DNA of 64,000 bases from Vicinamibacterales bacterium (GTDB lineage: Bacteria > Acidobacteriota > Vicinamibacteria > Vicinamibacterales > G965250185): positions 4,601,904-4,665,903 of the forward strand of contig OZ252293.1 of NCBI GenBank assembly GCA_965250185.1. The letters are read 5' to 3'. A program made the translations under genes and the position numbers. Under the pieces are notes generated by a model, which saw only the letters and a program-made list of their open reading frames with translations, was not told the origin of the DNA and did no database searches. The number at the start of each line of letters is the position of its first letter. The stretch's first letter is position 1. Positions 11,317-63,886 of this stretch are shown here, one piece after another.

Positions 11317-12474
11317 ATGAAGAACGAACTGACCCGACGAGATGTGATCCGCGGCGGCGCGGCAGGATTGGGCCTGATGGCCCTGCCCGGATGGGCCATG
11401 CCCGCGCTGGCTCAGGGTGAGGCGATTGTCCCGTTCACCGACTATCCCGACGACTGGACGGCCGAACGGGGGCCGGAGCGTCGCCGGCTGGACATTCGCA
11501 CGATTGACGACAAGGCCACGCCCGCTGATCGATTCTTCACGACGCAGCACCTCGGGCATCCGAAGATCGATGGCGCGGCCTTCCGCCTCACGGTGAGCGG
11601 GCTGGTCGACCGCGAAGCCGAGCTGTCGCTCGACGACGTCCGAGCCCTGGGCCAGACGGATCTCGACGCCGCGTTCGAGTGCTCGGGGAACAGCCGCCGC
11701 TCCATGCAAGGCTCCGCCTCGGTCGGTCGCTGGTCCGGAGTGCGTGTGCGCGACGTACTGAACCACGTTGGCGTGAAGGAGAACGGGCACGAGGTCGTGT
11801 TCTTCGGCGCCGACAAGGGGATGGAGAAGGTCGAGTTCCGCGGTCGGACCTACGAGGTCGAGCAGCACTATGGCCGCAGCATCTCGATATCGAAGGCGAT
11901 GACGCCGGAGCCGTTTCTGGCCACCGCGCTGAATGGCGAGCCGCTCACCGTCCACCAGGGTTTCCCGATGCGGCTCCTCATGCCCGGATGGTACGGGGCG
12001 CCCAACGTGAAATGGGTCGCGAACATCCACGTCCAGGAGGCTCCGTTCCTCGGAAAATATCAGGCTCGCTGGTACCGCACGTTGCGCAGCGAAATGGTCG
12101 GCGGCGAGATGCAGTGGAAAGAGACGGCCATCACGCGGATGCGGGTCAAGTCGGTGATCGCTCGCGTGACGCGCGAGGGCGACACGTTCACCGCACTCGG
12201 CTTCGTGCTACACGACGGCACGCCGCTCCGCTCGGTCGAGGTTCGCGTCGACGACGGCGCCTGGGAGACGGCCACGGTCGACCCGTCGCAGAGCCAGTAC
12301 GCCTGGAAGCTCTTCACGCATAGCTGGAAGGGATCGAGCCCTGGCGAGCACGGCGTGATCTCGCGAGCGACCGACGTCAACGGCGAGGTACAGCCAACCG
12401 TCGAGGAACTCGAGGTCAAGAAGACGTTCCTCGAGGACAACTCGCAGCACGAACGTCGCTTCATGGTCTCGTAG
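11317..12474 (+). CDS. sulfite-oxidase-family molybdopterin oxidoreductase, Tat signal (copy 2, tandem paralogue)
   Basis: It is the same length (385 aa) and colinear with copy 1, with most residues identical by eye. Confidence 0.85.
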   Translation: MKNELTRRDVIRGGAAGLGLMALPGWAMPALAQGEAIVPFTDYPDDWTAERGPERRRLDIRTIDDKATPADRFFTTQHLGHPKIDGAAFRLTVSGLVDREAELSLDDVRALGQTDLDAAFECSGNSRRSMQGSASVGRWSGVRVRDVLNHVGVKENGHEVVFFGADKGMEKVEFRGRTYEVEQHYGRSISISKAMTPEPFLATALNGEPLTVHQGFPMRLLMPGWYGAPNVKWVANIHVQEAPFLGKYQARWYRTLRSEMVGGEMQWKETAITRMRVKSVIARVTREGDTFTALGFVLHDGTPLRSVEVRVDDGAWETATVDPSQSQYAWKLFTHSWKGSSPGEHGVISRATDVNGEVQPTVEELEVKKTFLEDNSQHERRFMVS

Positions 12475-12562
12475 CGACGAGGGACGGGCGGAGACCGGCG
12501 CACGCGAGAAGCTCATGGAGGCACCCGCGTCCGGGCGTTGGCGCCGGTCTCTGCCAGTTCGG

Positions 12563-13564
12563 TCAGGCCAACAGGCGGGTGACCAGGGCAACGTACCCTT
12601 CGACGCCCCGCTCGAGTTCCTCGACGCTCACGTGCTCCTCATCGGTGTGAGCAACCTCGATCCCCCCGGGGCCGAACAATAGCGGCGTACCCCAGGCCGA
12701 CAACAGCGGGACGTCGGTCGTGTACGCGAACGCCGCCGTCTCGAAACCCGGCACGGTGGCCATGGTTGCGGCCGGCACCTCGGTGACCGTCTCGACCTGG
12801 ACGTGCGGCAAATCGGCCAGGCACGCATGCAGGGCGGACGTGTCGCCGACGGTCCGGAAACACACCTGAGCCTCGGCCTCGGCCGGGATCACGTTGTGCG
12901 CCACACCGCCGCTGATCATCGTGACCGCGCTCGTCGTACGACCGAGCACGGGATCCGTCGGCATCTCGATGGTCCGCACTGTCGTCAGCGCCTCGACGAG
13001 CCGGTCGATCGCCGACACACCCAGTTCAGGACGGGAAGAATGCGCCGCCCGCCCGGCCGCACGGATCCTGACGTGCAGGCTACCCCGGGTGGCCGTAGCG
13101 AGTCGGTTGCCGGTTGGCTCACCATTTATGAGGTAACGCGTGGCCGTGGGGAGACGATTCGCGGCCAGGGCTCCCGCACTGCCCGCCTCCTCACCAACCA
13201 CGATGAGCAAGGCGACTCGGGTCTCCCCGGCCGCCCGCAGCCGCTCGGCCGCCACGATCTGTGCAGCCAGAATGCCCTTGGCGTCGCAGGCACCACGTCC
13301 ATGGATCGTGACGCCATCGAAGCGGCTCGGCATGAAGGGCGGCACGCAGTCACAGTGTGTCGAGAGGGCCACGGCCGGACTGGCGGGACCGTCGAGCTCG
13401 GCGAGTACGTTGAAGCGCTCGCCCTCTACTGGCTGGCGCGTGATCCGGTAGCCGAGATCCGTCAGATACCCCGCCAGCCAGTCCGCGACGGCCGTCTCGT
13501 CGCCCGTCGTCGAGTCGATGTCGATGAGCGTCCGCGCAAGCGGCACCAGCCCTAGCGGATCCAC
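12563..13564 (-). CDS. M20 family metallohydrolase (DapE/ArgE type), last gene of the dap operon
   Basis: It has HCDCVP, GRGACDAKG and VGEE motifs. Its start overlaps the dapD end. Confidence 0.75.
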   Translation of the reverse strand: MDPLGLVPLARTLIDIDSTTGDETAVADWLAGYLTDLGYRITRQPVEGERFNVLAELDGPASPAVALSTHCDCVPPFMPSRFDGVTIHGRGACDAKGILAAQIVAAERLRAAGETRVALLIVVGEEAGSAGALAANRLPTATRYLINGEPTGNRLATATRGSLHVRIRAAGRAAHSSRPELGVSAIDRLVEALTTVRTIEMPTDPVLGRTTSAVTMISGGVAHNVIPAEAEAQVCFRTVGDTSALHACLADLPHVQVETVTEVPAATMATVPGFETAAFAYTTDVPLLSAWGTPLLFGPGGIEVAHTDEEHVSVEELERGVEGYVALVTRLLA

Positions 13565-24449: not shown

Positions 24450-24806
24450 CTAGCCGACCACAGACTCGAGAATGCGACTCGTCCAACCGGGCAGCACGCG
24501 GAGCAGCAGAGCTGCCATCACGATCATCGCCGCCAACCCGAGGACAACGCCCGTCGCGCGCCGACCGACGAATCGGCAGCCCACAGTATCGCACCGCCGC
24601 CGTTCGCGTCCGTAGAGCACGAAGGCCACGGCGAGCCCGGCCACCCCGAACGGAAGCGTGAGCCACTCGTACCGCATCATCGACACCATGAGGCCGGAAC
24701 TCGCCAACCCAAGGGCGATCAGGGCGATGGGAATGACGCAGCAGCTGGCGGCGATGGTCGCCGCCACGGCACCGGTCAGGCCGAGGAGACGTGGGCCCAC
24801 GATCAC
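24450..24806 (-). CDS. merT: MerT-like thiophilic-metal transporter
   Basis: The 118-aa protein has about 3 TM segments, a CC pair in TM1 (AASCCVIPIALIALG) and a loop Cys pair (RRRCDTVGC). The GTG start overlaps the upstream stop (GTGA). Confidence 0.75.
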   Translation of the reverse strand: MIVGPRLLGLTGAVAATIAASCCVIPIALIALGLASSGLMVSMMRYEWLTLPFGVAGLAVAFVLYGRERRRCDTVGCRFVGRRATGVVLGLAAMIVMAALLLRVLPGWTSRILESVVG

Positions 24807-25159
24807 TCGATTGGACGCGCGGAGAATCCGGCGTCCTCAACGGCCGCCATGAGGTCGCTCGGGGACGCGAGGTCGGCGTCGTAGCGAACCTGCGCCTGGG
24901 GCGGCTCGTAGGTAACCCGAGCCGAGGCGACACCGTCCACATCCAGCAAGGCTTGGCGCACCGCCAAGGGGCAGGTGCCTCACGTCATCCCCTCGACCTG
25001 AAGCGTCACGCTTGACGCTCGACTCTTGTCGACCACGCCATCCGCATCATCGAGATGATCGAGCGTCCCCGAATGGTCAGGATGCGCGCCACAGGCACCC
25101 ATGGCCAGCGTCCCTATCAGAATCAACGCCGCTCGACCAACGACTGGCGCGCCTGGCAT
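24803..25159 (-). CDS. MerP-like HMA-domain periplasmic protein with in-frame UGA (candidate selenocysteine) at 24980-24982
   Basis: Read-through gives ...SSVTLQVEGMT-U-GTCPLAVRQALLDVDGVASARVTYEPPQAQVRYDADLASPSDLMAAVEDAGFSARPIE. The ATG at 25159 is preceded by AGGAGGA. The signal peptide has a lipobox-like LAMGAC. Confidence 0.6.
24952..24968 (-). promoter_or_regulatory. SECIS-like stem-loop CUUGGCG-GUG-CGCCAAG
   Basis: This 17-nt hairpin starts 11 nt after the UGA and has GU in the apical loop. Confidence 0.45.
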
Positions 25160-25215
25160 GACTGTCCTCCTGTTTCGGTCGGAAACCCGCTCGTGGAGCA
25201 TGAAGACTCGGGAGG

Positions 25216-25221
25216 ATTATA
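25216..25221 (-). promoter_or_regulatory. candidate -10 box (TATAAT) for the HMA-merT operon
   Basis: There is a perfect TATAAT on the minus strand about 57 nt upstream of the ATG at 25159. The -35 element is weak. Confidence 0.3.
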
Positions 25222-25372: not shown

Positions 25373-27142
25373 ATGAAGATTCGCGCAACTCGGCTCGTGG
25401 CGCTGGCGCTCGTGGTCGTTGGATCGCAGGGGTTGTCGGGGCAGCTGGGACGGATTGGCATCCAGTTGACGCCAATAACCGAGTCGGACGTGGTCCATGC
25501 TGGTACGACAGCGAGCATCGCGGTCCACGCGTCGCTCGATGCGGGCTTCCACACCAACTCGAACACTCCGCTCGATGAGTTGCTCATTCCGACGACCCTG
25601 ACGCTCGACCTGCCTGACGGCATCTCGGTACAGGCCATTGGGTGGCCCGAGCCGTTCCTGCTCGAGCAAGAGGGCGCCGCGCAACCGCTCGAGGTCTTCG
25701 GCGAAGAATTCACGATCGGGGTCGTCCTGGCGCTGGCACCCGACCTGCCGCCCGGGATGTATGCGGTCCCCGCCACCCTGCGCTACCAGGCGTGCGACGA
25801 GACGATGTGCTACTTCCCGTCCGCGGCGGAGTTTGCGTTCGAGCTCGCCGTCGTACCGGCCGATCAGGCCGTCGCGATCCTGGAACCATCGCTCTTCGAG
25901 GGTCTGACGTTCGAGGAGTTCGAGGCAAGCGCCGCGACGCCGGAGCCGGCCGGTCCGGCCATCGGGTCGGGCGATGCGGACGTGGCCGCCGATGCGCTCG
26001 CGCGCCTGGATCAGTTCACCGTTCTGCGAACGACGGGTGGGTATCTCGGCGCTGACGATTTCCTCCAGTTCATCGACGATGCGGAATCTGGACGCCCGGA
26101 GCGAGGATTGCTCGAGGGCCGCGGACCGCTCGCGATCCTGCTCATCGTGCTTCTGGGCGGGCTCGCCCTCAATCTCACCCCCTGCGTACTCCCGATGATC
26201 CCGATCAATCTCGCGATCATCGGCGCCGGAGCCCGCGCGGGCTCGCGGGCCCGTGGATTCGCTCTCGGAACCGCGTACGGCACGGCCATGGCGCTCGTAT
26301 ACGGCGTGCTGGGTCTGGTCGTCATTCTCACCGCCGGAACATTCGGGACGATCAACGCGTCACCGTGGTTCAACCTCGGAATCGCGGTGCTCTTCGTGGT
26401 GCTCGGCCTGGCCATGTTCGACGTGCTCTTCATCGATTTTTCCAAGCTGCAGTCACAGATCACCATCGGCGGATCGGGAAGCGGATCGTTTCTGGTGGCG
26501 TTCGGGATGGGCGCGGTTGCCGCCCTCCTGGCCGGGGCGTGCGTCGCCCCGGTCGTGATCCAGGTCATCGTCTTCTCGAGCAACCTGTACGCGACGGGGA
26601 CGACGATCGCGCTGCTGCTCCCCTTCTTTCTCGGCCTCGGCATGGCACTGCCCTGGCCGATCGCGGGCGGCGGCCTGACCCTGCTGCCGAAGCCAGGCCC
26701 CTGGATGGTCTGGGTGAAGCACGCGTTCGGCGTGTTCATCCTCGGCACGGCCCTCTATTACGGCTACATCGCGTACGGTCTCTTCAGTCAGCGCTGGGTC
26801 GATGCCGACGAGGTGGCGGGCAGCGTGCAGGAGATGCTCGATGAGGGCTGGTATGCGTCGCTCGAGCAGGGGCTCGCCACCGCCGAGGCAGAGGACAAGC
26901 TGGTACTCGTCGACATCTGGGCGACCTGGTGCAAGAACTGCCTGACGATGGACACCACGACGCTGAAGGATCCCCAGGTCCAGGACGCGCTCGACGACTA
27001 CGTGAAGATCAAGTTCCAGGCAGAGGATCTCAACGTCTCGCCCGCCGAAGAGGTCATGAAGCGGTTCGAGGCAATCGGCCTACCCGCGTACGCGATTCTC
27101 CGAAAGGGCACCTCACCCCTGACCGCCAGCGCGACCCGCTAA
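25373..27142 (+). CDS. dsbD: thiol:disulfide interchange protein DsbD
   Basis: It has an N-terminal DsbD-alpha domain (YQACDETMCYFP), a TM core with CVLPMIP and ACVAPV, and a C-terminal thioredoxin domain (WATWCKNC). Confidence 0.9.
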   Translation: MKIRATRLVALALVVVGSQGLSGQLGRIGIQLTPITESDVVHAGTTASIAVHASLDAGFHTNSNTPLDELLIPTTLTLDLPDGISVQAIGWPEPFLLEQEGAAQPLEVFGEEFTIGVVLALAPDLPPGMYAVPATLRYQACDETMCYFPSAAEFAFELAVVPADQAVAILEPSLFEGLTFEEFEASAATPEPAGPAIGSGDADVAADALARLDQFTVLRTTGGYLGADDFLQFIDDAESGRPERGLLEGRGPLAILLIVLLGGLALNLTPCVLPMIPINLAIIGAGARAGSRARGFALGTAYGTAMALVYGVLGLVVILTAGTFGTINASPWFNLGIAVLFVVLGLAMFDVLFIDFSKLQSQITIGGSGSGSFLVAFGMGAVAALLAGACVAPVVIQVIVFSSNLYATGTTIALLLPFFLGLGMALPWPIAGGGLTLLPKPGPWMVWVKHAFGVFILGTALYYGYIAYGLFSQRWVDADEVAGSVQEMLDEGWYASLEQGLATAEAEDKLVLVDIWATWCKNCLTMDTTTLKDPQVQDALDDYVKIKFQAEDLNVSPAEEVMKRFEAIGLPAYAILRKGTSPLTASATR

Positions 27143-30171: not shown

Positions 30172-31059
30172 TCAGCGCAAGTGCTCGTTGAAGAACGCGA
30201 TCGTCCGATCCCACGCCAGCGTCGCCGCGGCCTCGTCGTAGCGCGGCGTCGTATCATTGTGGAAGCCGTGATTGGTGCCATCGTACATGTGCATCGTGTA
30301 CGTGACACCGTTCGCCTTCAGCGCCGTCTCGTAATCCGGCCAGCCCGCGTTGACACGCTCGTCGAGGCCCGCATACTGAATCAGCAGTGGCGCCTTGATC
30401 TTCGGAACGTTCTCGGACGGTGGCTGGCCGCCGTAGAACGGAACGGCCGCCCCGAGGTCGGGAATCTCGACCGCCAGCGCGTTGGACATGCCGCCGCCGA
30501 AGCAGAAGCCGACAACGCCGACGCTGCCGCTGCAATGCGCGTGCGATTTCAGAAAGCCGGCGGCCGCGACGAAGTCCTCGAGCATCTCGTCCCGCGATCG
30601 CTTCCGCTGCAGCTCGCGCCCCTCATCATCGGTGCCCGGATAGCCGCCGAGCGGCGCGAGCGCGTCCGGCGCGAACGCCAAGAAGCCGGCCAGCGCGGCG
30701 CGGCGGGCGACGTCCTTGATGTGGGGATTGAGTCCCCGATTCTCGTGAATGACCAGGACACCAGGTAGCGTGCCACTCGCGTCAGCCGGGCGGACGAGGT
30801 AGCCCCTCATCGTGCCGGCACCCTGAGGCGAGGCGTACTCGACGGTCTCGGCCGTCACACGTGCGTCGCCCTCGGCGATCTGCTGAGCCTCCGCGTAGTT
30901 GGGGCTGAGGCTCTCCACCAGCGCGGCCGCTGTCACTCCGCCGACAGCGAACTTCGCCGCGCCGTCGAAAAACTCGCGGCGACTGACCCCGCCGTGCACG
31001 TACCGATCGAAGAGGTCGAGCAGCTCCGGGTCGAAATCGGTGGCCTTCTTGCGCTCCAT
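30172..31059 (-). CDS. dienelactone hydrolase family protein
   Basis: It has the Tat-like SRREFF, plus [23 protein letters not shown] and HGFHND. Confidence 0.85.
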
Positions 31060-55409: not shown

Positions 55410-57407
55410 TCATCGCGTGCCCGGCCGGGTGCTGGACCCGCCGGGGCTCCGTCCGGCTTCGCTGTGCTCTCCGCCACGCTGCGCGAAGACGACTCCCGCC
55501 ACGAGACACCCTCCGACGACCAGGACTCCCGGCCCCTGGACGCTGAACGCGATGCCTGCCGCCAGGAGCAGGGCGCGGCTCGGCCATGAGAGCGGACCGC
55601 GCACGTAGCCGATGAAGCTGGCGGTGATGCACGTCAAGGTGGCCAGGGCCAGAAGCGTCTGCCAGAGAATCGCCACGGGCGTGCCCATCATGAGTAGCTC
55701 GGAGTGGTACGTGAACAGGAATGGCACCAGGAACAGCGCGATCCCGAGCCTCAGGGTGTGTGAGCCCTGCCGCCAGATGTCGACCCCGGAGAGCGACGAG
55801 GCGACGTACAGGGTGCCTCCCACGGGTGGCGTGATCACGTGGGACACGCCCCAGTAGAGCACGAACAGATGGGCTCCGAGCGGCGGCACACCCAACTCGG
55901 TGAGCGCCGGCGCAACGGTGACGGCAAGCAGCGTATACGAGGCAATGGCCGGCACCCCGGTGCCGAGCACGAGCGAGGCGAGTCCGGCCAGGACCAGCAA
56001 GACGAACAGATTCCCGTTCGAGGCTGCGACGAGCAGCACGGCCGCACGGAGCGCCGCGCCGGTGATCACGACGCTGGCGATCAACATCCCGACCGATCCG
56101 CAGATGATCGCGACGACGAGCGAATTTCGCGCCGCGATCTCGAAGCCCAGGCGGATTCTCGGCCAGTCGAACCGTGACTCGCGGGCGAAGGCGGTCACGA
56201 CGAACAGGCACAGCAGGCCGTACAGCGCGCTGAGGCCAGGGGGATAACGCCGCACCGCCAGGTAGTAGACCAGGACGAGCAGCGGAAGCACGAAGAACCA
56301 GCCACGCCGGAGCGTGTCACCAAACGACGGGAGCCCCTCGCGTGCCAACCCCTCGAGGCCGGTCCGACGCGCCTCGAAGTCCACCAGCAGGTAGAGGCTC
56401 GCGTAGAACAGCATAGCCGGGATCGCCGCGGCCACGCACACCTCCAGGTACGGGACGTCGAGAAACTCGGCGATCATGAACGCCACCATGCCCATGACCG
56501 GAGGCATCAGGACTCCACCCGTCGACGCCACGGCCTCGACCGCGCCCGCGAACGCCGGCCGGTAACCGACGCCCTTCATCATCGGGATCGTGATCACCCC
56601 GGTCGTGGCGACATCGGCCGCCGCGCTCCCGCTGATCGTACCGAACAATCCGCTCGCCACGATGGCCACCTTGGCAGGGCCCCCGCGCAGGTGGCCGGTC
56701 AGGGCGAGGGCAAGGTCGATGAAGAAACGCCCAGCGCCGGAGGCCTGGAGGAACCCACCGAATAGGATGAAGACCACCAGGATCGAGGTCCACAGCCCCA
56801 TCACGCTCCCAAAAACGCCATCCAGCGACAGGTAGACCTCGCCAATCACCCGCCTGAACGAGTGGGCACGGCCGTAGAGCACACCAGGAAATCGATCGGC
56901 AAGCATCGCGTAGAAGACGAACCCGACGAGCAGGCCGGGCAGCACCAGGCCTGACACGCGCCGCGTGCCCTCGAGCAGCACCAGGATCGTGACGATCCCG
57001 AGGGCCAGCTGGAACGGCTCGACGACCGGCGACGCCATCTGGAGCTCGACGACCGTGGACGTCGGGGCGATGTAGAAGCAGCCGGTTGCTCCCGCCAGCA
57101 TGAGGACGTAGTCGTACCAGGGAACCGGTCCCGAATCTCCCGGACGGGCTCGCTTCAGCAAGAACGTGAGGATGATCAGGAGGCCGAGGCTGATGGCGCG
57201 ATGGCTCTCCCCGAGCACGAAGAAGTACTGGGTCGAGAATGCCCCGAGGACGTACAGCAACTCGTAGACGAAGAAGGCGACGACGAACGCGGTCGTCGAT
57301 GCCGGCCAGGCCGCGGCCGTCACGCCGTGCGCGGTTAGGCCGATGTCATCGCCCGCGATCGGGGTCGTCGCCCGCTCGCAGCCCTCACCTGACTGCACGG
57401 GGTGCAT
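55410..57407 (-). CDS. TRAP transporter fused (DctQM-type, TAXI-associated) permease
   Basis: It is a 665-aa polytopic protein with GPAKVAIVASGLFGTISGSAAADVATTGVITIPMMK. Confidence 0.85.
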   Translation of the reverse strand: MHPVQSGEGCERATTPIAGDDIGLTAHGVTAAAWPASTTAFVVAFFVYELLYVLGAFSTQYFFVLGESHRAISLGLLIILTFLLKRARPGDSGPVPWYDYVLMLAGATGCFYIAPTSTVVELQMASPVVEPFQLALGIVTILVLLEGTRRVSGLVLPGLLVGFVFYAMLADRFPGVLYGRAHSFRRVIGEVYLSLDGVFGSVMGLWTSILVVFILFGGFLQASGAGRFFIDLALALTGHLRGGPAKVAIVASGLFGTISGSAAADVATTGVITIPMMKGVGYRPAFAGAVEAVASTGGVLMPPVMGMVAFMIAEFLDVPYLEVCVAAAIPAMLFYASLYLLVDFEARRTGLEGLAREGLPSFGDTLRRGWFFVLPLLVLVYYLAVRRYPPGLSALYGLLCLFVVTAFARESRFDWPRIRLGFEIAARNSLVVAIICGSVGMLIASVVITGAALRAAVLLVAASNGNLFVLLVLAGLASLVLGTGVPAIASYTLLAVTVAPALTELGVPPLGAHLFVLYWGVSHVITPPVGGTLYVASSLSGVDIWRQGSHTLRLGIALFLVPFLFTYHSELLMMGTPVAILWQTLLALATLTCITASFIGYVRGPLSWPSRALLLAAGIAFSVQGPGVLVVGGCLVAGVVFAQRGGEHSEAGRSPGGSSTRPGTR

Positions 57408-62603: not shown

Positions 62604-63886
62604 GGCTTCGTCAATAAACAAGATTTACATTATGACCCGGTCGGCGTAGACTGCCTGCTGTGTCCGACCTGCGTGCGCTGAAGCAGAAGGTGGCGCGGCT
62701 GTGGCCGCATCTGGACGAACGCTCGCGTCGGTTGTTTGCGGCCAGTGAAGCCCGGTAACTCGGCCATGGCGGCGTGGCCCTCATGAGTCGCGCCTGTGGG
62801 TTGTCGCGTGTCACGATCACGAAAGGGTTGCAGGAACTGGACGCACCTCCACTGCCGACGGGGCGGGTGCGGCGGCCGGGGGGCGGCCGGCCGGCCCTCG
62901 TGGTGCGCGATCCCGATTTGCCCGCGCGGTTGGAGGCGCTGGTCGAGCCGCTGACCCGGGGCGACCCGGAGTCGCCGTTGCGGTGGACGAGCAAGAGCAC
63001 GCGGACCTTGGCGGCCACACTCACCGCCCAGCATCATCCGGTGAGTCACGAAAAGGTGGCCCAGCTGCTGCGGGCGCTCGACTACAGCCTGCAGGGCACG
63101 CGCAAGATGGAGGAAGGGGCGGACCATCCCGACCGCGATGCGCAGTTTGCGTACATCAATGACCACGTGCGCCGGGCGCTCCGGGCGCAACGCCCCGTCA
63201 TCTCGGTCGACACTAAGAAGAAGGAACTCCTGGGCAACTACCACAACGCCGGGCGGCAATGGCGACCCGCGAAGGCTCCGCCGAGGGTACAGGTGCACGA
63301 CTTTCCGGCGCCTTCCGTACCGCGGGCGTATCCGTACGGCATCTACGACGTGGGGCGCAACACCGGCTTCGTCAATGTGGGGACGGATCATGACACCGGG
63401 GCCTTCGCCGTCGCCTCCATTCGTGGTTGGTGGCGGGCCCAGGGGCGGCGGCTCTACCCGAACGCCCGCCGACTCCTGATCACCGCGGACGGTGGCGGCA
63501 GTAACGGCTACCGGCTGCGCCAGTGGAAGGTGGAGTTGCAACGCTTAGCGGACGGCGCGGGGCTCGCCCTCGTGGTCTGCCACTTTCCCCCTGGCACCAG
63601 CAAGTGGAACAAGGTCGAGCATCGGTTGTTCTCGTTCATTTCCTCGAACTGGCGCGGGGAACCCCTGCGCGATTACGAGACCATCGTTCGGCTCATTGCG
63701 AAAACGACGACCGCCAAAGGCCTCACCGTCACCTGTCGACTCGACCGGCGGCGCTATCCCGTCGGCCGCAAGGTCTCTGACCAGGAGATGACCACGCTCA
63801 ACCTCACGCCGCAACCCTTCCACGGTGAATGGAACTACGTGATTAGGCCGCGCGCCAATGTGTGAAGTTTGTTTATTGACAGCGCC
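62604..63886 (+). mobile_element. ISAzo13-family insertion sequence (about 1.28 kb)
   Basis: The 26-bp imperfect terminal IRs are GGCTTCGTCAATAAACAAGATTTACA and GGCGCTGTCAATAAACAAACTTCACA (20 of 26 match). The flanking direct repeat is TAA (or CTAA). Confidence 0.8.
62774..63865 (+). CDS. ISAzo13-family DDE transposase (N-terminal 32 codons separated by an in-frame TAA at 62756-62758)
   Basis: It has family-typical blocks (VDTKKKELLGNY, AYPYGIYD, GTDHDT, ITADGGGSNG, PPGTSKWNKVEHRLFS). Upstream and in frame is VSDLRALKQKVARLWPHLDERSRRLFAASEAR*. Confidence 0.8.
   Translation: MALMSRACGLSRVTITKGLQELDAPPLPTGRVRRPGGGRPALVVRDPDLPARLEALVEPLTRGDPESPLRWTSKSTRTLAATLTAQHHPVSHEKVAQLLRALDYSLQGTRKMEEGADHPDRDAQFAYINDHVRRALRAQRPVISVDTKKKELLGNYHNAGRQWRPAKAPPRVQVHDFPAPSVPRAYPYGIYDVGRNTGFVNVGTDHDTGAFAVASIRGWWRAQGRRLYPNARRLLITADGGGSNGYRLRQWKVELQRLADGAGLALVVCHFPPGTSKWNKVEHRLFSFISSNWRGEPLRDYETIVRLIAKTTTAKGLTVTCRLDRRRYPVGRKVSDQEMTTLNLTPQPFHGEWNYVIRPRANV

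What the first reader, a model, noticed from the sequence alone, without database searches (positions are those of the whole stretch)
24450..25221. MerP-like HMA gene with UGA replacing the first Cys of GMTCxxC: candidate selenoprotein coupled to MerT and facing DsbD
ORF 24980..25201 stops at a TGA exactly where the HMA/MerP metal-binding loop needs its first cysteine (VTLQVEGMT-TGA-GTCP). Reading through gives 58 more codons of clean HMA-fold sequence. That reading ends in a stop that overlaps the GTG start of a MerT-like gene by 4 nt (GTGA). The whole gene therefore looks intact apart from the TGA.

Eleven nt after the UGA lies a 17-nt hairpin, CUUGGCG-GUG-CGCCAAG, at 24952-24968. As I recall it, the minimal E. 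coli fdhF SECIS is a 17-nt upper stem-loop 11 nt from the UGA with G/U in the loop. UxxC variants of CxxC redox or metal motifs are a known selenoprotein theme.

The MerT-like partner keeps the TM1 CC pair and the loop Cys pair. No merA, merR or merB is present. A complete dsbD is divergently transcribed 213 bp away and could keep a periplasmic Sec/Cys pair reduced (inference). I cannot tell from memory whether Sec-containing MerP-like proteins are already catalogued.
Basis: partly seen in the sequence, partly recalled or inferred. Interest (0 to 1): 0.85.

Follow-up and report, generated by a model that had tools for sequence, protein, structure and literature searches.

The report
Selenocysteine-coded MerP-like metal-binding lipoprotein gene
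A small exported metal-binding protein gene has a UGA codon where its first metal-binding cysteine should be, and 77 related sequences keep both that UGA and a hairpin just after it, so it is very probably a real selenoprotein of a kind already catalogued, though this lineage is missed by current annotation.

Summary
On the minus strand an HMA/MerP-like ORF is interrupted by TGA (24982-24980) at the first Cys of GMT-C-xx-C. Reading through gives a complete HMA domain. Its stop overlaps the start of a MerT-like gene. The TGA is not an error: a sister population (94.5% identical, six independent assemblies) keeps it. So do 77 fetched loci, mostly Vicinamibacterales/Acidobacteriota; only one has Cys. 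Eleven nt after the UGA every copy has a 6-bp stem with a G-U-containing loop. In 44 distinct sequences 99.2% of pair cells pair, with compensatory changes. All four published bacterial SECIS criteria are met. Orthologous pairs sit next to genuine MerA (L011, L023) and MerR (L023), which points to mercury or soft-metal handling. Corrections: the true start is ATG 25159, not 25201. DsbD is a neighbour only in the window's close relatives. Sec-containing HMA proteins are already catalogued (NCBIfam NF041115 UxxU; UxxC P-type ATPase), but this clade scores below every curated cut-off and source pipelines truncate or skip it. Sec-insertion genes could not be checked. Verdict: genuine candidate selenoprotein, a new member of a known kind.

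The parts
24803..25159 (-). HMA/MerP-like selenoprotein gene: 118 codons, ATG 25159, Sec codon 60, Cys codon 63, stop TGA 24805-24803
   Evidence: Translation. Pfam HMA 50.5 bits. PDB MerP 1afi E 4.9e-11 and 1osd E 1.3e-11, aligned across the TGA. Start fixed by a stop codon upstream of this ATG in sister loci L030-L035. The 50 codons after the TGA have median dN/dS 0.38 and no in-frame stops in 25 sequences.
25166..25170 (-). Shine-Dalgarno GGAGG, 6 nt before ATG 25159
   Evidence: Read directly from the sequence.
25091..25159 (-). Signal peptide ending in a lipobox-like ...LAMGAC; Cys23 codon at 25093-25091. Predicts an exported, lipid-anchored protein.
   Evidence: Matches the PROSITE-type lipobox pattern (pattern recalled from memory). 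The window and 15 of 24 other family members (23 Sec forms and the Cys form L029) match it; the rest have an N-terminal hydrophobic anchor. Inference only, as no signal-peptide predictor was available.
24980..24982 (-). In-frame UGA, proposed Sec60, at the position of the first Cys of GMT-C-xx-C
   Evidence: TGA at the homologous codon in 77 fetched loci, TGT in one (L029).
24971..24973 (-). TGC, second metal ligand Cys63 of the U-G-T-C motif
   Evidence: TG[CT] is invariant in 44 distinct sequences (alignment columns 25-27).
24952..24968 (-). Bacterial SECIS-type hairpin CUUGGC(G)-GUG-(C)GCCAAG, 11 nt after the UGA. The family consensus is a 6-bp stem with a 5-nt loop N-G-U-G-C.
   Evidence: RNAalifold predicts this stem on its own. 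99.2% of 264 pair cells are paired, with 12 double changes; covariation score 0.234 against 0.116 shuffled (0/500) and at most 0.043 when slid. MFE -10.2 kcal/mol. Meets the published bSECIS criteria.
24450..24806 (-). MerT-like three-helix membrane protein (118 aa from GTG 24806, or 116 aa from GTG 24800). CC pair at 24743-24738; loop Cys72 at 24593-24591 and Cys77 at 24578-24576.
   Evidence: ORF. CC, C72 and C77 are invariant or nearly so in 16 homologues. hhalign against Tn501/Tn21 MerT (sequence recalled from memory): 87.6%, E 3.5e-6, with the CC pairs aligned. Weak NCBIfam/Pfam MerT hits below cut-off. Immediately follows the HMA gene in all loci examined.
25373..27142 (+). DsbD (context only). 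It is divergent and is not a conserved partner of the pair.
   Evidence: Pfam DsbD_N, DsbD_TM and Thioredoxin_7. tblastn finds it next to the pair only in the window and L030-L035.

Best explanation
Window 25159-24803 (minus strand) encodes an exported, probably lipid-anchored, MerP-like heavy-metal-binding protein whose first metal ligand is selenocysteine (motif GMT-U-G-T-C).

Proposed sequence of events:
1. Translation starts at ATG 25159.
2. At UGA 24982-24980 the hairpin 11 nt downstream (24968-24952) acts as a bacterial SECIS. It recruits SelB with Sec-tRNA(Sec), so Sec is inserted instead of terminating.
3. The ribosome then reaches the true stop, UGA 24805-24803, which has no such hairpin. 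This stop overlaps or abuts the start of the MerT-like gene, so the two are translationally coupled.
4. Outside the cytoplasm the Sec60/Cys63 pair captures a thiophilic metal ion, most likely Hg(II).
5. It passes the metal to the Cys-Cys pair in the first helix of the MerT-like protein.
6. MerT-like moves it to its cytoplasmic Cys72/Cys77 pair and on to a cytosolic acceptor. That acceptor is MerA in some relatives and is unidentified in this window.

Shown here: ORF anatomy, HMA fold homology, conservation of the UGA, conservation and covariation of the hairpin, gene coupling, and mer-operon context in orthologues.

Inferred: actual Sec insertion, export and lipidation, metal identity and direction of transfer.
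For: - Anatomy.
- Not an error: the TGA is kept in six independent assemblies (four long-read, two short-read) of a population 94.5% identical to the window.
- TGA conserved: 23 of 26 GTDB-species loci carry it; the other three have no HMA gene in the upstream sequence (L016 lies at a contig edge with 353 nt; L020 and L022 have an ArsR-type regulator there). About 48 further metagenome loci also carry it. In total 77 loci have TGA and 1 has Cys.
- Downstream part is translated: zero in-frame stops against 42 and 26 in the other two frames, and median dN/dS 0.38.
- Hairpin: predicted independently by RNAalifold. In 44 distinct sequences 99.2% of cells are paired. Pair 31/45 is CG:34, GC:6, UA:3, GU:1 and pair 34/42 is GC:41, AU:2, GU:1. 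Covariation exceeds all 500 shuffles and all slid registers.
- Nature of the changes: they include synonymous pairs (Leu UUG/Gln CAA in the window against CUG/CAG elsewhere) and coupled amino-acid changes (Leu->Val with Gln->His).
- Loop: G37 and U38 are invariant.
- bSECIS criteria: all four from PMC13188914 are met, namely loop 3-9 nt, stem 4-16 bp, G in the first two loop positions, 16-37 nt from UGA to loop, and MFE <= -7.5 kcal/mol.
- The one Cys form (L029, TGT) keeps the stem but has the loop changed to CGUUC.
- UGA also serves as the gene's own stop and as the stop of many window genes, so the recoding is context-dependent.
- Mercury link: a genuine MerA lies directly after the pair in L011 (TIGR02053 548.9 against cut-off 454.45). 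A MerA homologue (44.7% identical to the L011 enzyme over 555 aa) plus a genuine MerR lie beside it in L023 (TIGR02051 163.6 against 150.85). MerR-family genes are present in at least 21 loci.
- Sec use in the lineage: a MerB-like gene 3 kb from the pair in L006 has two conserved in-frame TGAs, each followed by a GGUC-loop hairpin. Acidobacteriota are documented Sec users.
Against: - No selA, selB, selD or tRNA-Sec is present in the 64-kb window or in 853 kb of fetched relatives. The rest of the genome could not be read, so Sec-decoding capacity in this organism is unproven.
- The window has no merA, merR or merB, so its metal and its cytosolic acceptor are unknown.
- The hairpin is short (6-7 bp) and in a single sequence is not more stable than shuffled controls.
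- The partner is only remotely MerT-like and falls below the Pfam and NCBIfam cut-offs.
- No experimental data exist.
Confidence: 0.8

Rival explanations
1. The UGA is recoded, but not to selenocysteine. A suppressor or tRNA(Sec)-like tRNA, such as the selC*-type tRNA(Cys) or the acidobacterial allo-tRNAs, inserts Cys or another residue, with or without the hairpin.
For: Acidobacteria carry unusual allo-tRNAs proposed to act as nonsense or missense suppressors, and some bacteria have tRNA(Sec)-like tRNA(Cys) (PMC5389517). The Sec machinery was not observed here.
Against: The hairpin has the position, size and G-U loop of SelB-dependent SECIS elements. UGA is the normal stop of this very gene and of many neighbours, which argues against general suppression. 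No tRNA of any kind lies near the loci. If Cys were the product, a TGC/TGT codon would do the job, yet TGA is kept in 77 of 78 loci.
Confidence: 0.07
2. It is a genuine Sec-HMA protein, but it handles copper(I) or another soft metal (CopZ/CusF-like periplasmic chaperone) or selenium itself. In this organism it is not part of a mercury system.
For: The window lacks merA, merR and merB. HMA domains score almost equally against the CopZ, MerP and ATPase models. Most associated regulators are only MerR-family members and are not proven to sense Hg. The related MerB-like Sec genes sit in copper-resistance islands.
Against: The invariant partner is MerT-like, with the CC pair and the cytoplasmic Cys pair typical of Hg(II) importers. 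Where an enzyme is adjacent it is MerA or a close MerA homologue (L011, L023), and L023 has a MerR that passes the equivalog cut-off.
Confidence: 0.25
3. The TGA is a real stop. It reflects either a sequencing or assembly error or a pseudogene, or two separate products: a 59-aa lipopeptide and an internally initiated C-terminal fragment.
For: Source pipelines call only a 50-aa N-terminal fragment or no gene at all. A TTG-initiated 54-aa ORF exists downstream.
Against: The TGA is identical in six independent assemblies of a sister population and in 77 loci spanning more than 40% protein divergence. The downstream frame is under purifying selection and never interrupted. The split would cut an HMA fold between strand 1 and its metal loop. 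The downstream start codons are not conserved.
Confidence: 0.03

Closest known systems
[quoted passage not shown]
   Same: It is the best-scoring curated family for the window protein and for all seven orthologues scanned (73.8-89.1 bits). It is a single HMA-type domain with Sec in the metal-binding loop.
   Different: Every score is below the family cut-off of 95. The motif here is UxxC with one Sec; the second position is invariantly TG[CT]. These proteins carry a signal peptide or lipobox and are always followed by a MerT-like gene.
MerP, periplasmic Hg(II)-binding protein of mer operons (TIGR02052; PDB 1afi, 1osd)
   Same: Exported single HMA domain with a GMTCxxC-type loop, encoded next to a MerT-type transporter. 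In L011 and L023 it is also next to a MerA-type reductase, and in L023 next to MerR. PDB MerP E-values are about 1e-11.
   Different: The first Cys is replaced by Sec. The score of 55.5 bits is below the 92.55 cut-off. It is a lipoprotein-type rather than a soluble periplasmic protein. Gene order is P then T rather than T then P. The window has no merA or merR.
Cation-transporting P-type ATPase selenoprotein (UxxC in the N-terminal HMA domain; Carboxydothermus hydrogenoformans ABB15669.1)
   Same: Same substitution: the first Cys of the HMA CxxC loop becomes Sec.
   Different: There the HMA domain is cytoplasmic and fused to an efflux pump. Here it is a free-standing exported protein paired with an importer-like MerT homologue.
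NF045683 MerT/CopZ fusion-like heavy-metal transport selenoprotein, and MerT-family selenoproteins with a CU motif (Haft preprint 10.1101/2022.07.06.499078)
   Same: They combine a MerT-type membrane module with an HMA module and use Sec in mercury-type transport.
   Different: Here there are two separate genes in the opposite order, and Sec is in the HMA loop, not in MerT. The MerT-like CC pair is nearly invariant: first Cys in at least 90% of 16 sequences, second in all. Scores are far below cut-off (41 and 13 bits against 375).
E. coli fdhF minimal SECIS (recalled from memory: 17-nt upper stem-loop, 11 nt after the UGA, GGUC loop with essential G and U)
   Same: The spacing is 11 nt. The stem-loop is 17 nt. 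The loop has invariant G-U.
   Different: The stem sequence differs and no bulged U is present. Binding by SelB was not tested.

Membership tests
Bacterial selenoprotein gene (Sec-UGA plus bSECIS) | In-frame UGA aligned with a Cys in non-selenoprotein homologues (a Cys/Sec pair) | tested here: met
   P0001/L029 has TGT in an otherwise identical loop, GMTCGTCPLAVRQAL. All HMA, MerP and CopZ models and PDB chains have Cys at this position.
Bacterial selenoprotein gene (Sec-UGA plus bSECIS) | TGA-containing homologues in other organisms, with conserved coding sequence on both sides | tested here: met
   77 loci have TGA. The frame downstream is open in all, with dN/dS 0.38.
Bacterial selenoprotein gene (Sec-UGA plus bSECIS) | bSECIS model: 3-9 nt loop, 4-16 bp stem, G in the first two loop positions, 16-37 nt from UGA to loop, MFE <= -7.5 kcal/mol (PMC13188914) | tested here: met
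   The stem is 6-7 bp. The loop is (G)GUG(C). The distance from UGA to loop is 17-18 nt. MFE is -10.2 kcal/mol.
Bacterial selenoprotein gene (Sec-UGA plus bSECIS) | selA, selB, selC (tRNA-Sec) and selD present in the same genome | not testable with these tools
   None is in the window or in the fetched loci. Sec use is documented for the phylum only.
Bacterial selenoprotein gene (Sec-UGA plus bSECIS) | Selenium actually incorporated at the UGA | not testable with these tools
   Needs 75Se labelling or mass spectrometry.
HMA domain (Pfam PF00403) | Score at or above the gathering cut-off over the whole domain | tested here: met
   50.5 bits against 24.8, profile positions 1-61 of 62.
MerP equivalog (TIGR02052) | Score at or above the curated cut-off | tested here: not met
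   55.5 bits against 92.55. The seven orthologues scanned score 44-62 bits.
NF041115 UxxU metal-binding (seleno)protein | Score at or above the curated cut-off of 95 | tested here: not met
   The window scores 73.8 bits and the seven orthologues scanned score 78.0-89.1 bits.
NF041115 UxxU metal-binding (seleno)protein | Two Sec residues in a UxxU motif | tested here: not met
   The second ligand codon is TGC or TGT in all 44 distinct sequences.
MerT mercuric ion transporter (PF02411 / NF010314) | Score at or above the curated cut-off | tested here: not met
   Pfam 15 bits against 32.9. NCBIfam 22.8 against 150 and 25.8 against 130.
MerT mercuric ion transporter (PF02411 / NF010314) | Cys-Cys pair in the first transmembrane helix and a Cys pair in the loop after helix 2 | tested here: met
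   C23, C72 and C77 are invariant in 16 homologues and C22 is present in at least 90% of them. The CC pairs align in hhalign at 87.6% probability, against a MerT sequence recalled from memory.
mer (mercury resistance) operon | MerR regulator and MerA reductase encoded with the transport genes | tested here: not met
   Neither is present in the 64-kb window. The feature is met in orthologous loci: L011 has MerA passing its cut-off, and L023 has a MerR passing its cut-off plus a MerA homologue found by tblastn (44.7% identity over 555 aa).

The most novel reading that the evidence does not exclude
Vicinamibacterales-type Acidobacteriota, and some neighbouring phyla, may run a selenium-dependent, extracytoplasmic branch of mercury or organometal handling that is absent from current catalogues. 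It would have two components. The first is a MerP-like lipoprotein in which Sec is essentially fixed (77 Sec against 1 Cys). The second, in some islands, is a secreted MerB-like protein with two Sec residues in repeated U-A-V-D motifs, paired with a TlpA-like redoxin. That MerB-like family (about 85 database clusters) is almost always truncated at '...FDVW' in protein databases.
Probability: 0.35. Interest if true: 0.7.

Novelty: new member of a known kind. Interest (0 to 1): 0.5.

Why it matters
Sec in place of the first Hg(II)/Cu(I) ligand of an exported MerP-type protein should give a lower pKa, faster ligand exchange and a stronger Hg-Se bond than Cys. An aerobic soil and marine lineage that has almost completely fixed Sec at this site therefore suggests selection for scavenging very low metal concentrations outside the cell.

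Practically, this clade (77 TGA-carrying loci fetched here, 23 of them from different GTDB species genomes) is invisible in protein databases. Gene callers stop at the TGA or skip the gene, and every member scanned (the window protein and seven orthologues) falls below the curated NCBIfam cut-offs. Mer-gene surveys and selenoproteome counts in Acidobacteriota therefore miss it.

It also offers a compact natural SECIS (17 nt, with natural compensatory variants and one natural loop mutant in a Cys revertant) for testing SelB recognition rules outside Proteobacteria.

Tried and rejected
- Rfam: no match at gathering threshold over the whole window, and only noise at E<=10 around the site.
- ARAGORN: no tRNA in the window and no tRNA-Sec in 26 loci.
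- Single-sequence folding gave no significant stability. The longer-context MFE prefers an alternative stem (GCACC.GCC/GGCGGUGC). I rejected that stem because RNAalifold and covariation support the 11-nt-spaced one.
- A scan for other in-frame TGA junctions in the window found two, at 30172-30174 and 55410-55412. Translation shows these are ordinary boundaries between adjacent same-frame genes: dienelactone hydrolase followed by an unknown protein, and a large multi-pass membrane protein (not family-scanned) followed by an unscanned ORF.
- The look-up of encoding contigs failed for P0007, the 99%-identical MerT-like protein. Its cluster mate P0027 worked.
- tblastn with E. coli SelD and SelB recalled from memory, against all fetched DNA, found one GTPase. 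From its sequence it looks like a BipA/TypA-type translational GTPase rather than SelB; it was not family-scanned.
- The GOS 'MerP' selenoprotein reads are a dubious 33-aa fragment and are not comparable.
- The DsbD link was rejected as a conserved feature.
- No sigma-70-like promoter was found in the intergenic region.
- I did not run structure prediction, because sequence homology to solved HMA structures was already unambiguous.
Full report
**Observation.** On the minus strand of the window an ORF reads ...VTLQVEGMT-TGA-GTCPLAVRQALL... with the TGA at 24982-24980.
- Read through, the frame stays open for 58 more codons to TGA 24805-24803.
- The 132-aa product (118 aa from the corrected start) matches Pfam HMA from profile position 1 to 61 of 62, at 50.5 bits against a cut-off of 24.8.
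- It also matches solved MerP, CopZ and ATPase HMA domains across the TGA; MerP 1afi scores E 4.9e-11 and 1osd scores 1.3e-11.
- The stop overlaps GTG 24806-24804 of a 118-aa membrane-protein ORF.
- The perfect hairpin CUUGGCG-GUG-CGCCAAG occupies 24968-24952, 11 nt after the UGA.
- A complete DsbD (DsbD_N, DsbD_TM, Thioredoxin_7) is divergently transcribed.

**Two corrections to the observation.**
1. The start is ATG 25159, preceded by GGAGG (25170-25166).
2. Taken alone, the hairpin is not remarkable. Its folding energy equals that of shuffled sequence (z from -0.7 to +0.4). About 1% of all TGA trinucleotides in this 66%-GC window (16 of 1609) are followed by a similar hairpin.

**Is the TGA real?** The MerT-like neighbour served as an anchor because gene callers predict it correctly.
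- Its cluster mate P0027 led to six independent assemblies from six samples, four long-read and two short-read. These are 94.5% identical to the window over 954 nt and share its synteny. All have TGA at the site.
- A scan of one genome per GTDB species returned 26 loci, nearly all Vicinamibacterales or other Acidobacteriota MAGs, plus one Gemmatimonadetes MAG.
- In 23 of these an HMA gene directly upstream of the MerT-like gene has TGA at the same codon. The other three have no HMA gene in the upstream sequence: L016 lies at a contig edge with 353 nt upstream, and L020 and L022 have an ArsR-type regulator there.
- A metagenome scan added 67 loci. Every one with a recognisable upstream HMA gene (about 48) has TGA.
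- Across everything fetched, 77 loci carry TGA (56 distinct 75-mers) and one carries TGT. That one is L029, on a low-coverage, transposase-rich contig.
- The 50 codons after the TGA contain no in-frame stop in 25 sequences, against 42 and 26 stops in the other frames. Their median dN/dS is 0.38 at dS of about 1.
- Sequencing error, pseudogene and two-product readings are therefore excluded for practical purposes.

**Is the hairpin a SECIS?**
- RNAalifold, given only the aligned sequences, predicts a 6-bp stem starting 11 nt after the UGA with a 5-nt loop.
- In 44 distinct sequences 99.2% of 264 pair cells form standard pairs.
- Pair 31/45 occurs as C-G (34), G-C (6), U-A (3) and G-U (1). Pair 34/42 occurs as G-C (41), A-U (2) and G-U (1).
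- The covariation score is 0.234 against 0.116 +/- 0.011 in shuffles (0 of 500 reach it). It is at most 0.043 when the 3' arm is slid by 1-3 nt.
- Some changes are synonymous on both sides: Leu UUG with Gln CAA in the window, against CUG with CAG elsewhere.
- Some couple a nonsynonymous change with a synonymous one: Ala->Thr GCC->ACC with Arg CGC->CGU.
- One clade changes two amino acids together: Leu->Val CUG->GUG with Gln->His CAG->CAC.
- These patterns are what selection on RNA pairing predicts. Selection on the peptide alone does not predict them.
- Loop positions G37 and U38 are invariant.
- The element meets all four criteria of the published bacterial SECIS model: 3-9 nt loop, 4-16 bp stem, G in the first two loop positions, and 16-37 nt from UGA to loop (here 17-18 nt). 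MFE must be <= -7.5 kcal/mol and here is -10.2.
- The single Cys form keeps the stem but has the loop changed from CGUGC to CGUUC. This fits relaxed constraint after loss of the UGA.
- UGA also terminates this same gene and many others in the window. Decoding is therefore local and signal-dependent, not a reassigned code.

**What could not be tested.**
- No selA, selB, selD or tRNA-Sec lies in the 64-kb window or in 853 kb of fetched relatives. The one GTPase hit looks, from its sequence, like a BipA/TypA-type GTPase rather than SelB.
- Three pieces of indirect support exist:
  - The phylum is a documented Sec user.
  - In L006 (a Vicinamibacterales chromosome), 3 kb from the pair, a MerB-like ORF has two in-frame TGAs. 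It scores 31.2 bits against Pfam MerB (cut-off 27). One TGA aligns with MerB Cys96 and the other with Cys159/160. Each is followed 12-13 nt later by a hairpin with a GGUC loop.
  - Both of those TGAs and both hairpins are conserved in distant homologues.

**What it does.** The partner protein is a remote MerT relative.
- It has three hydrophobic helices, a Cys-Cys pair in helix 1 (second Cys invariant, first in at least 90% of 16 homologues) and an invariant CxxxxC in the following loop.
- hhalign gives 87.6% probability against Tn501/Tn21 MerT (sequence from memory) with the CC pairs aligned. Scores are below the Pfam and NCBIfam cut-offs.
- The HMA protein has an N-terminal signal peptide ending in a lipobox-like G-A-C. 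The window and 15 of 24 other family members (23 Sec forms and the Cys form L029) fit the lipobox pattern, and the rest have a hydrophobic anchor. It therefore works outside the cytoplasm, like MerP.

The HMA(U)-MerT-like pair is the conserved core. Its neighbours vary:
- A DUF2703-like thioredoxin-fold gene lies directly upstream in 28 loci.
- A MerR-family regulator is present in at least 21 loci.
- Transposases flank several copies.
- L011 has a MerA that passes the equivalog cut-off immediately downstream. It carries an NmerA domain, the CVNVGCVPSK motif and a C-terminal CC.
- L023 has a canonical MerR that passes its cut-off, plus a MerA homologue (44.7% identical to the L011 enzyme over 555 aa) immediately upstream.

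The most likely function is capture of Hg(II) or another very thiophilic ion by a selenolate/thiolate pair, followed by hand-off to the MerT-like importer. The window itself has only the bare pair among housekeeping genes. It has no merA, merR or merB and no DUF2703-like gene. Its metal and its cytosolic acceptor are therefore inferred, not shown.

**DsbD.** DsbD is adjacent only in the window and its 94.5%-identical relatives. The idea that it keeps the Sec/Cys pair reduced remains possible but has no comparative support. Thiol-redox partners do recur as a theme: Thioredoxin_3 and DUF2703-like genes in other loci, and a TlpA-like redoxin next to the MerB-like gene.

**Comparison with what is known.** Sec in metal-binding HMA loops is already catalogued.
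- NCBIfam NF041115 is a 'UxxU metal-binding (seleno)protein' with two Sec.
- A UxxC P-type ATPase is known from Carboxydothermus.
- MerT-family selenoproteins and the MerT/CopZ fusion-like selenoprotein NF045683 are also listed.
- The window protein and the seven orthologues scanned hit NF041115 best, but at 73.8-89.1 bits, always below its cut-off of 95.
- They differ from it in having one Sec (UxxC), an export signal and an obligatory MerT-like partner.
- They also fail the MerP equivalog cut-off.
- Source pipelines call either a 50-aa fragment or nothing. A search of 5.8 billion proteins returned only six homologues, all Cys forms.
- The family therefore exists in sequence data but is absent from protein catalogues. 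I rate it a new member of a known kind.

**Verdict.** The probability of a genuine Sec codon with a functional SECIS is about 0.8. The remaining doubt rests on the unobserved Sec machinery and the lack of experiments. Interest is moderate (0.5): the principle is known. What is new is a lineage in which Sec is almost fixed in an exported MerP-type protein, together with the secreted two-Sec MerB-like family noticed alongside it. Both are worth a specialist's follow-up.

Noticed in passing
L006 12761-13345 (TGAs at 13055 and 13223); L103 8001-8861; L104/L105 8001-8861: A secreted MerB-like protein family (Pfam MerB 31.2 bits) has two conserved in-frame TGAs in repeated U-A-V-D motifs. Each is followed 12-13 nt later by a hairpin with a GGUC loop. 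About 85 database clusters exist, and roughly 75 are truncated at '...FDVW'. Four entries show W at both sites (TGA called as Trp), and one has Cys at site 1. In L103-L105 the gene is preceded by a TlpA-like redoxin and sits in copper or metal resistance islands. It is not in the 2026 selenoprotein catalogue, which lists only SaoL (CU motif). It may be an uncatalogued selenoprotein family.
   Followed up: partly
L011 8759-11152; L023 6381-10350: In two genomes the Sec-HMA/MerT-like pair is part of a real mer operon. In L011 the order is HMA(U)-MerT-like-MerA. In L023 it is MerR, divergently oriented, then a MerA homologue, then HMA(U)-MerT-like. The L011 MerA and the L023 MerR pass the NCBIfam equivalog cut-offs; the L023 MerA homologue was found by tblastn only (44.7% identity over 555 aa).
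   Followed up: yes
e.g. L001 4333-4665 and 4022-4285; 28 loci in all: A roughly 100-aa thioredoxin-fold protein (F-D-G-C-P-S-W motif, weak DUF2703 hit) lies directly upstream of the Sec-HMA gene in 28 loci. In L026 it is fused to the MerR-like regulator. An 87-aa Thioredoxin_3 protein is present in 11 loci. Both are absent from the window.
   Followed up: partly
L029 8001-8678; L028 6504-7733 and 10459-11688: The only Cys (TGT) form sits on a 5x-coverage contig full of transposases, an integrase and a resolvase. It keeps the stem but has the loop changed to CGUUC. In L028 the pair lies between two identical IS transposase copies and looks like a composite transposon. The cassette appears to be mobile.
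   Followed up: partly
window 24803-25201; L030-L035 between DsbD and the MerT-like gene; L001 4671-4823: Public gene calls either omit the HMA gene entirely or record a 50-aa fragment ending at the TGA. The family is therefore missing from protein databases.
   Followed up: yes
window 30172-30174 and 55410-55412 (minus strand): At two other places a TGA separates two high-GC3 segments in the same frame. Translation shows ordinary gene boundaries (dienelactone hydrolase followed by an unknown protein; a large multi-pass membrane protein followed by an unscanned ORF). These are not recoding sites.
   Followed up: yes
L030, L032, L033 about 11843-12925 (L033 8749-9831), against window about 23037: Three of the sister-population assemblies have a DDE_3 transposase inserted between the beta-lactamase-family gene and the cupin gene. 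The window and L031 lack it. The window has its own ISAZ013-type transposase at 62774-63865.
   Followed up: no
L006 12050-12800: This long-read chromosome has apparent 1-nt indels in both the redoxin gene and the MerB-like gene when compared with close homologues (P0032, L103). They are probably assembly errors, so frameshifts in these MAGs should not be read as pseudogenes.
   Followed up: partly
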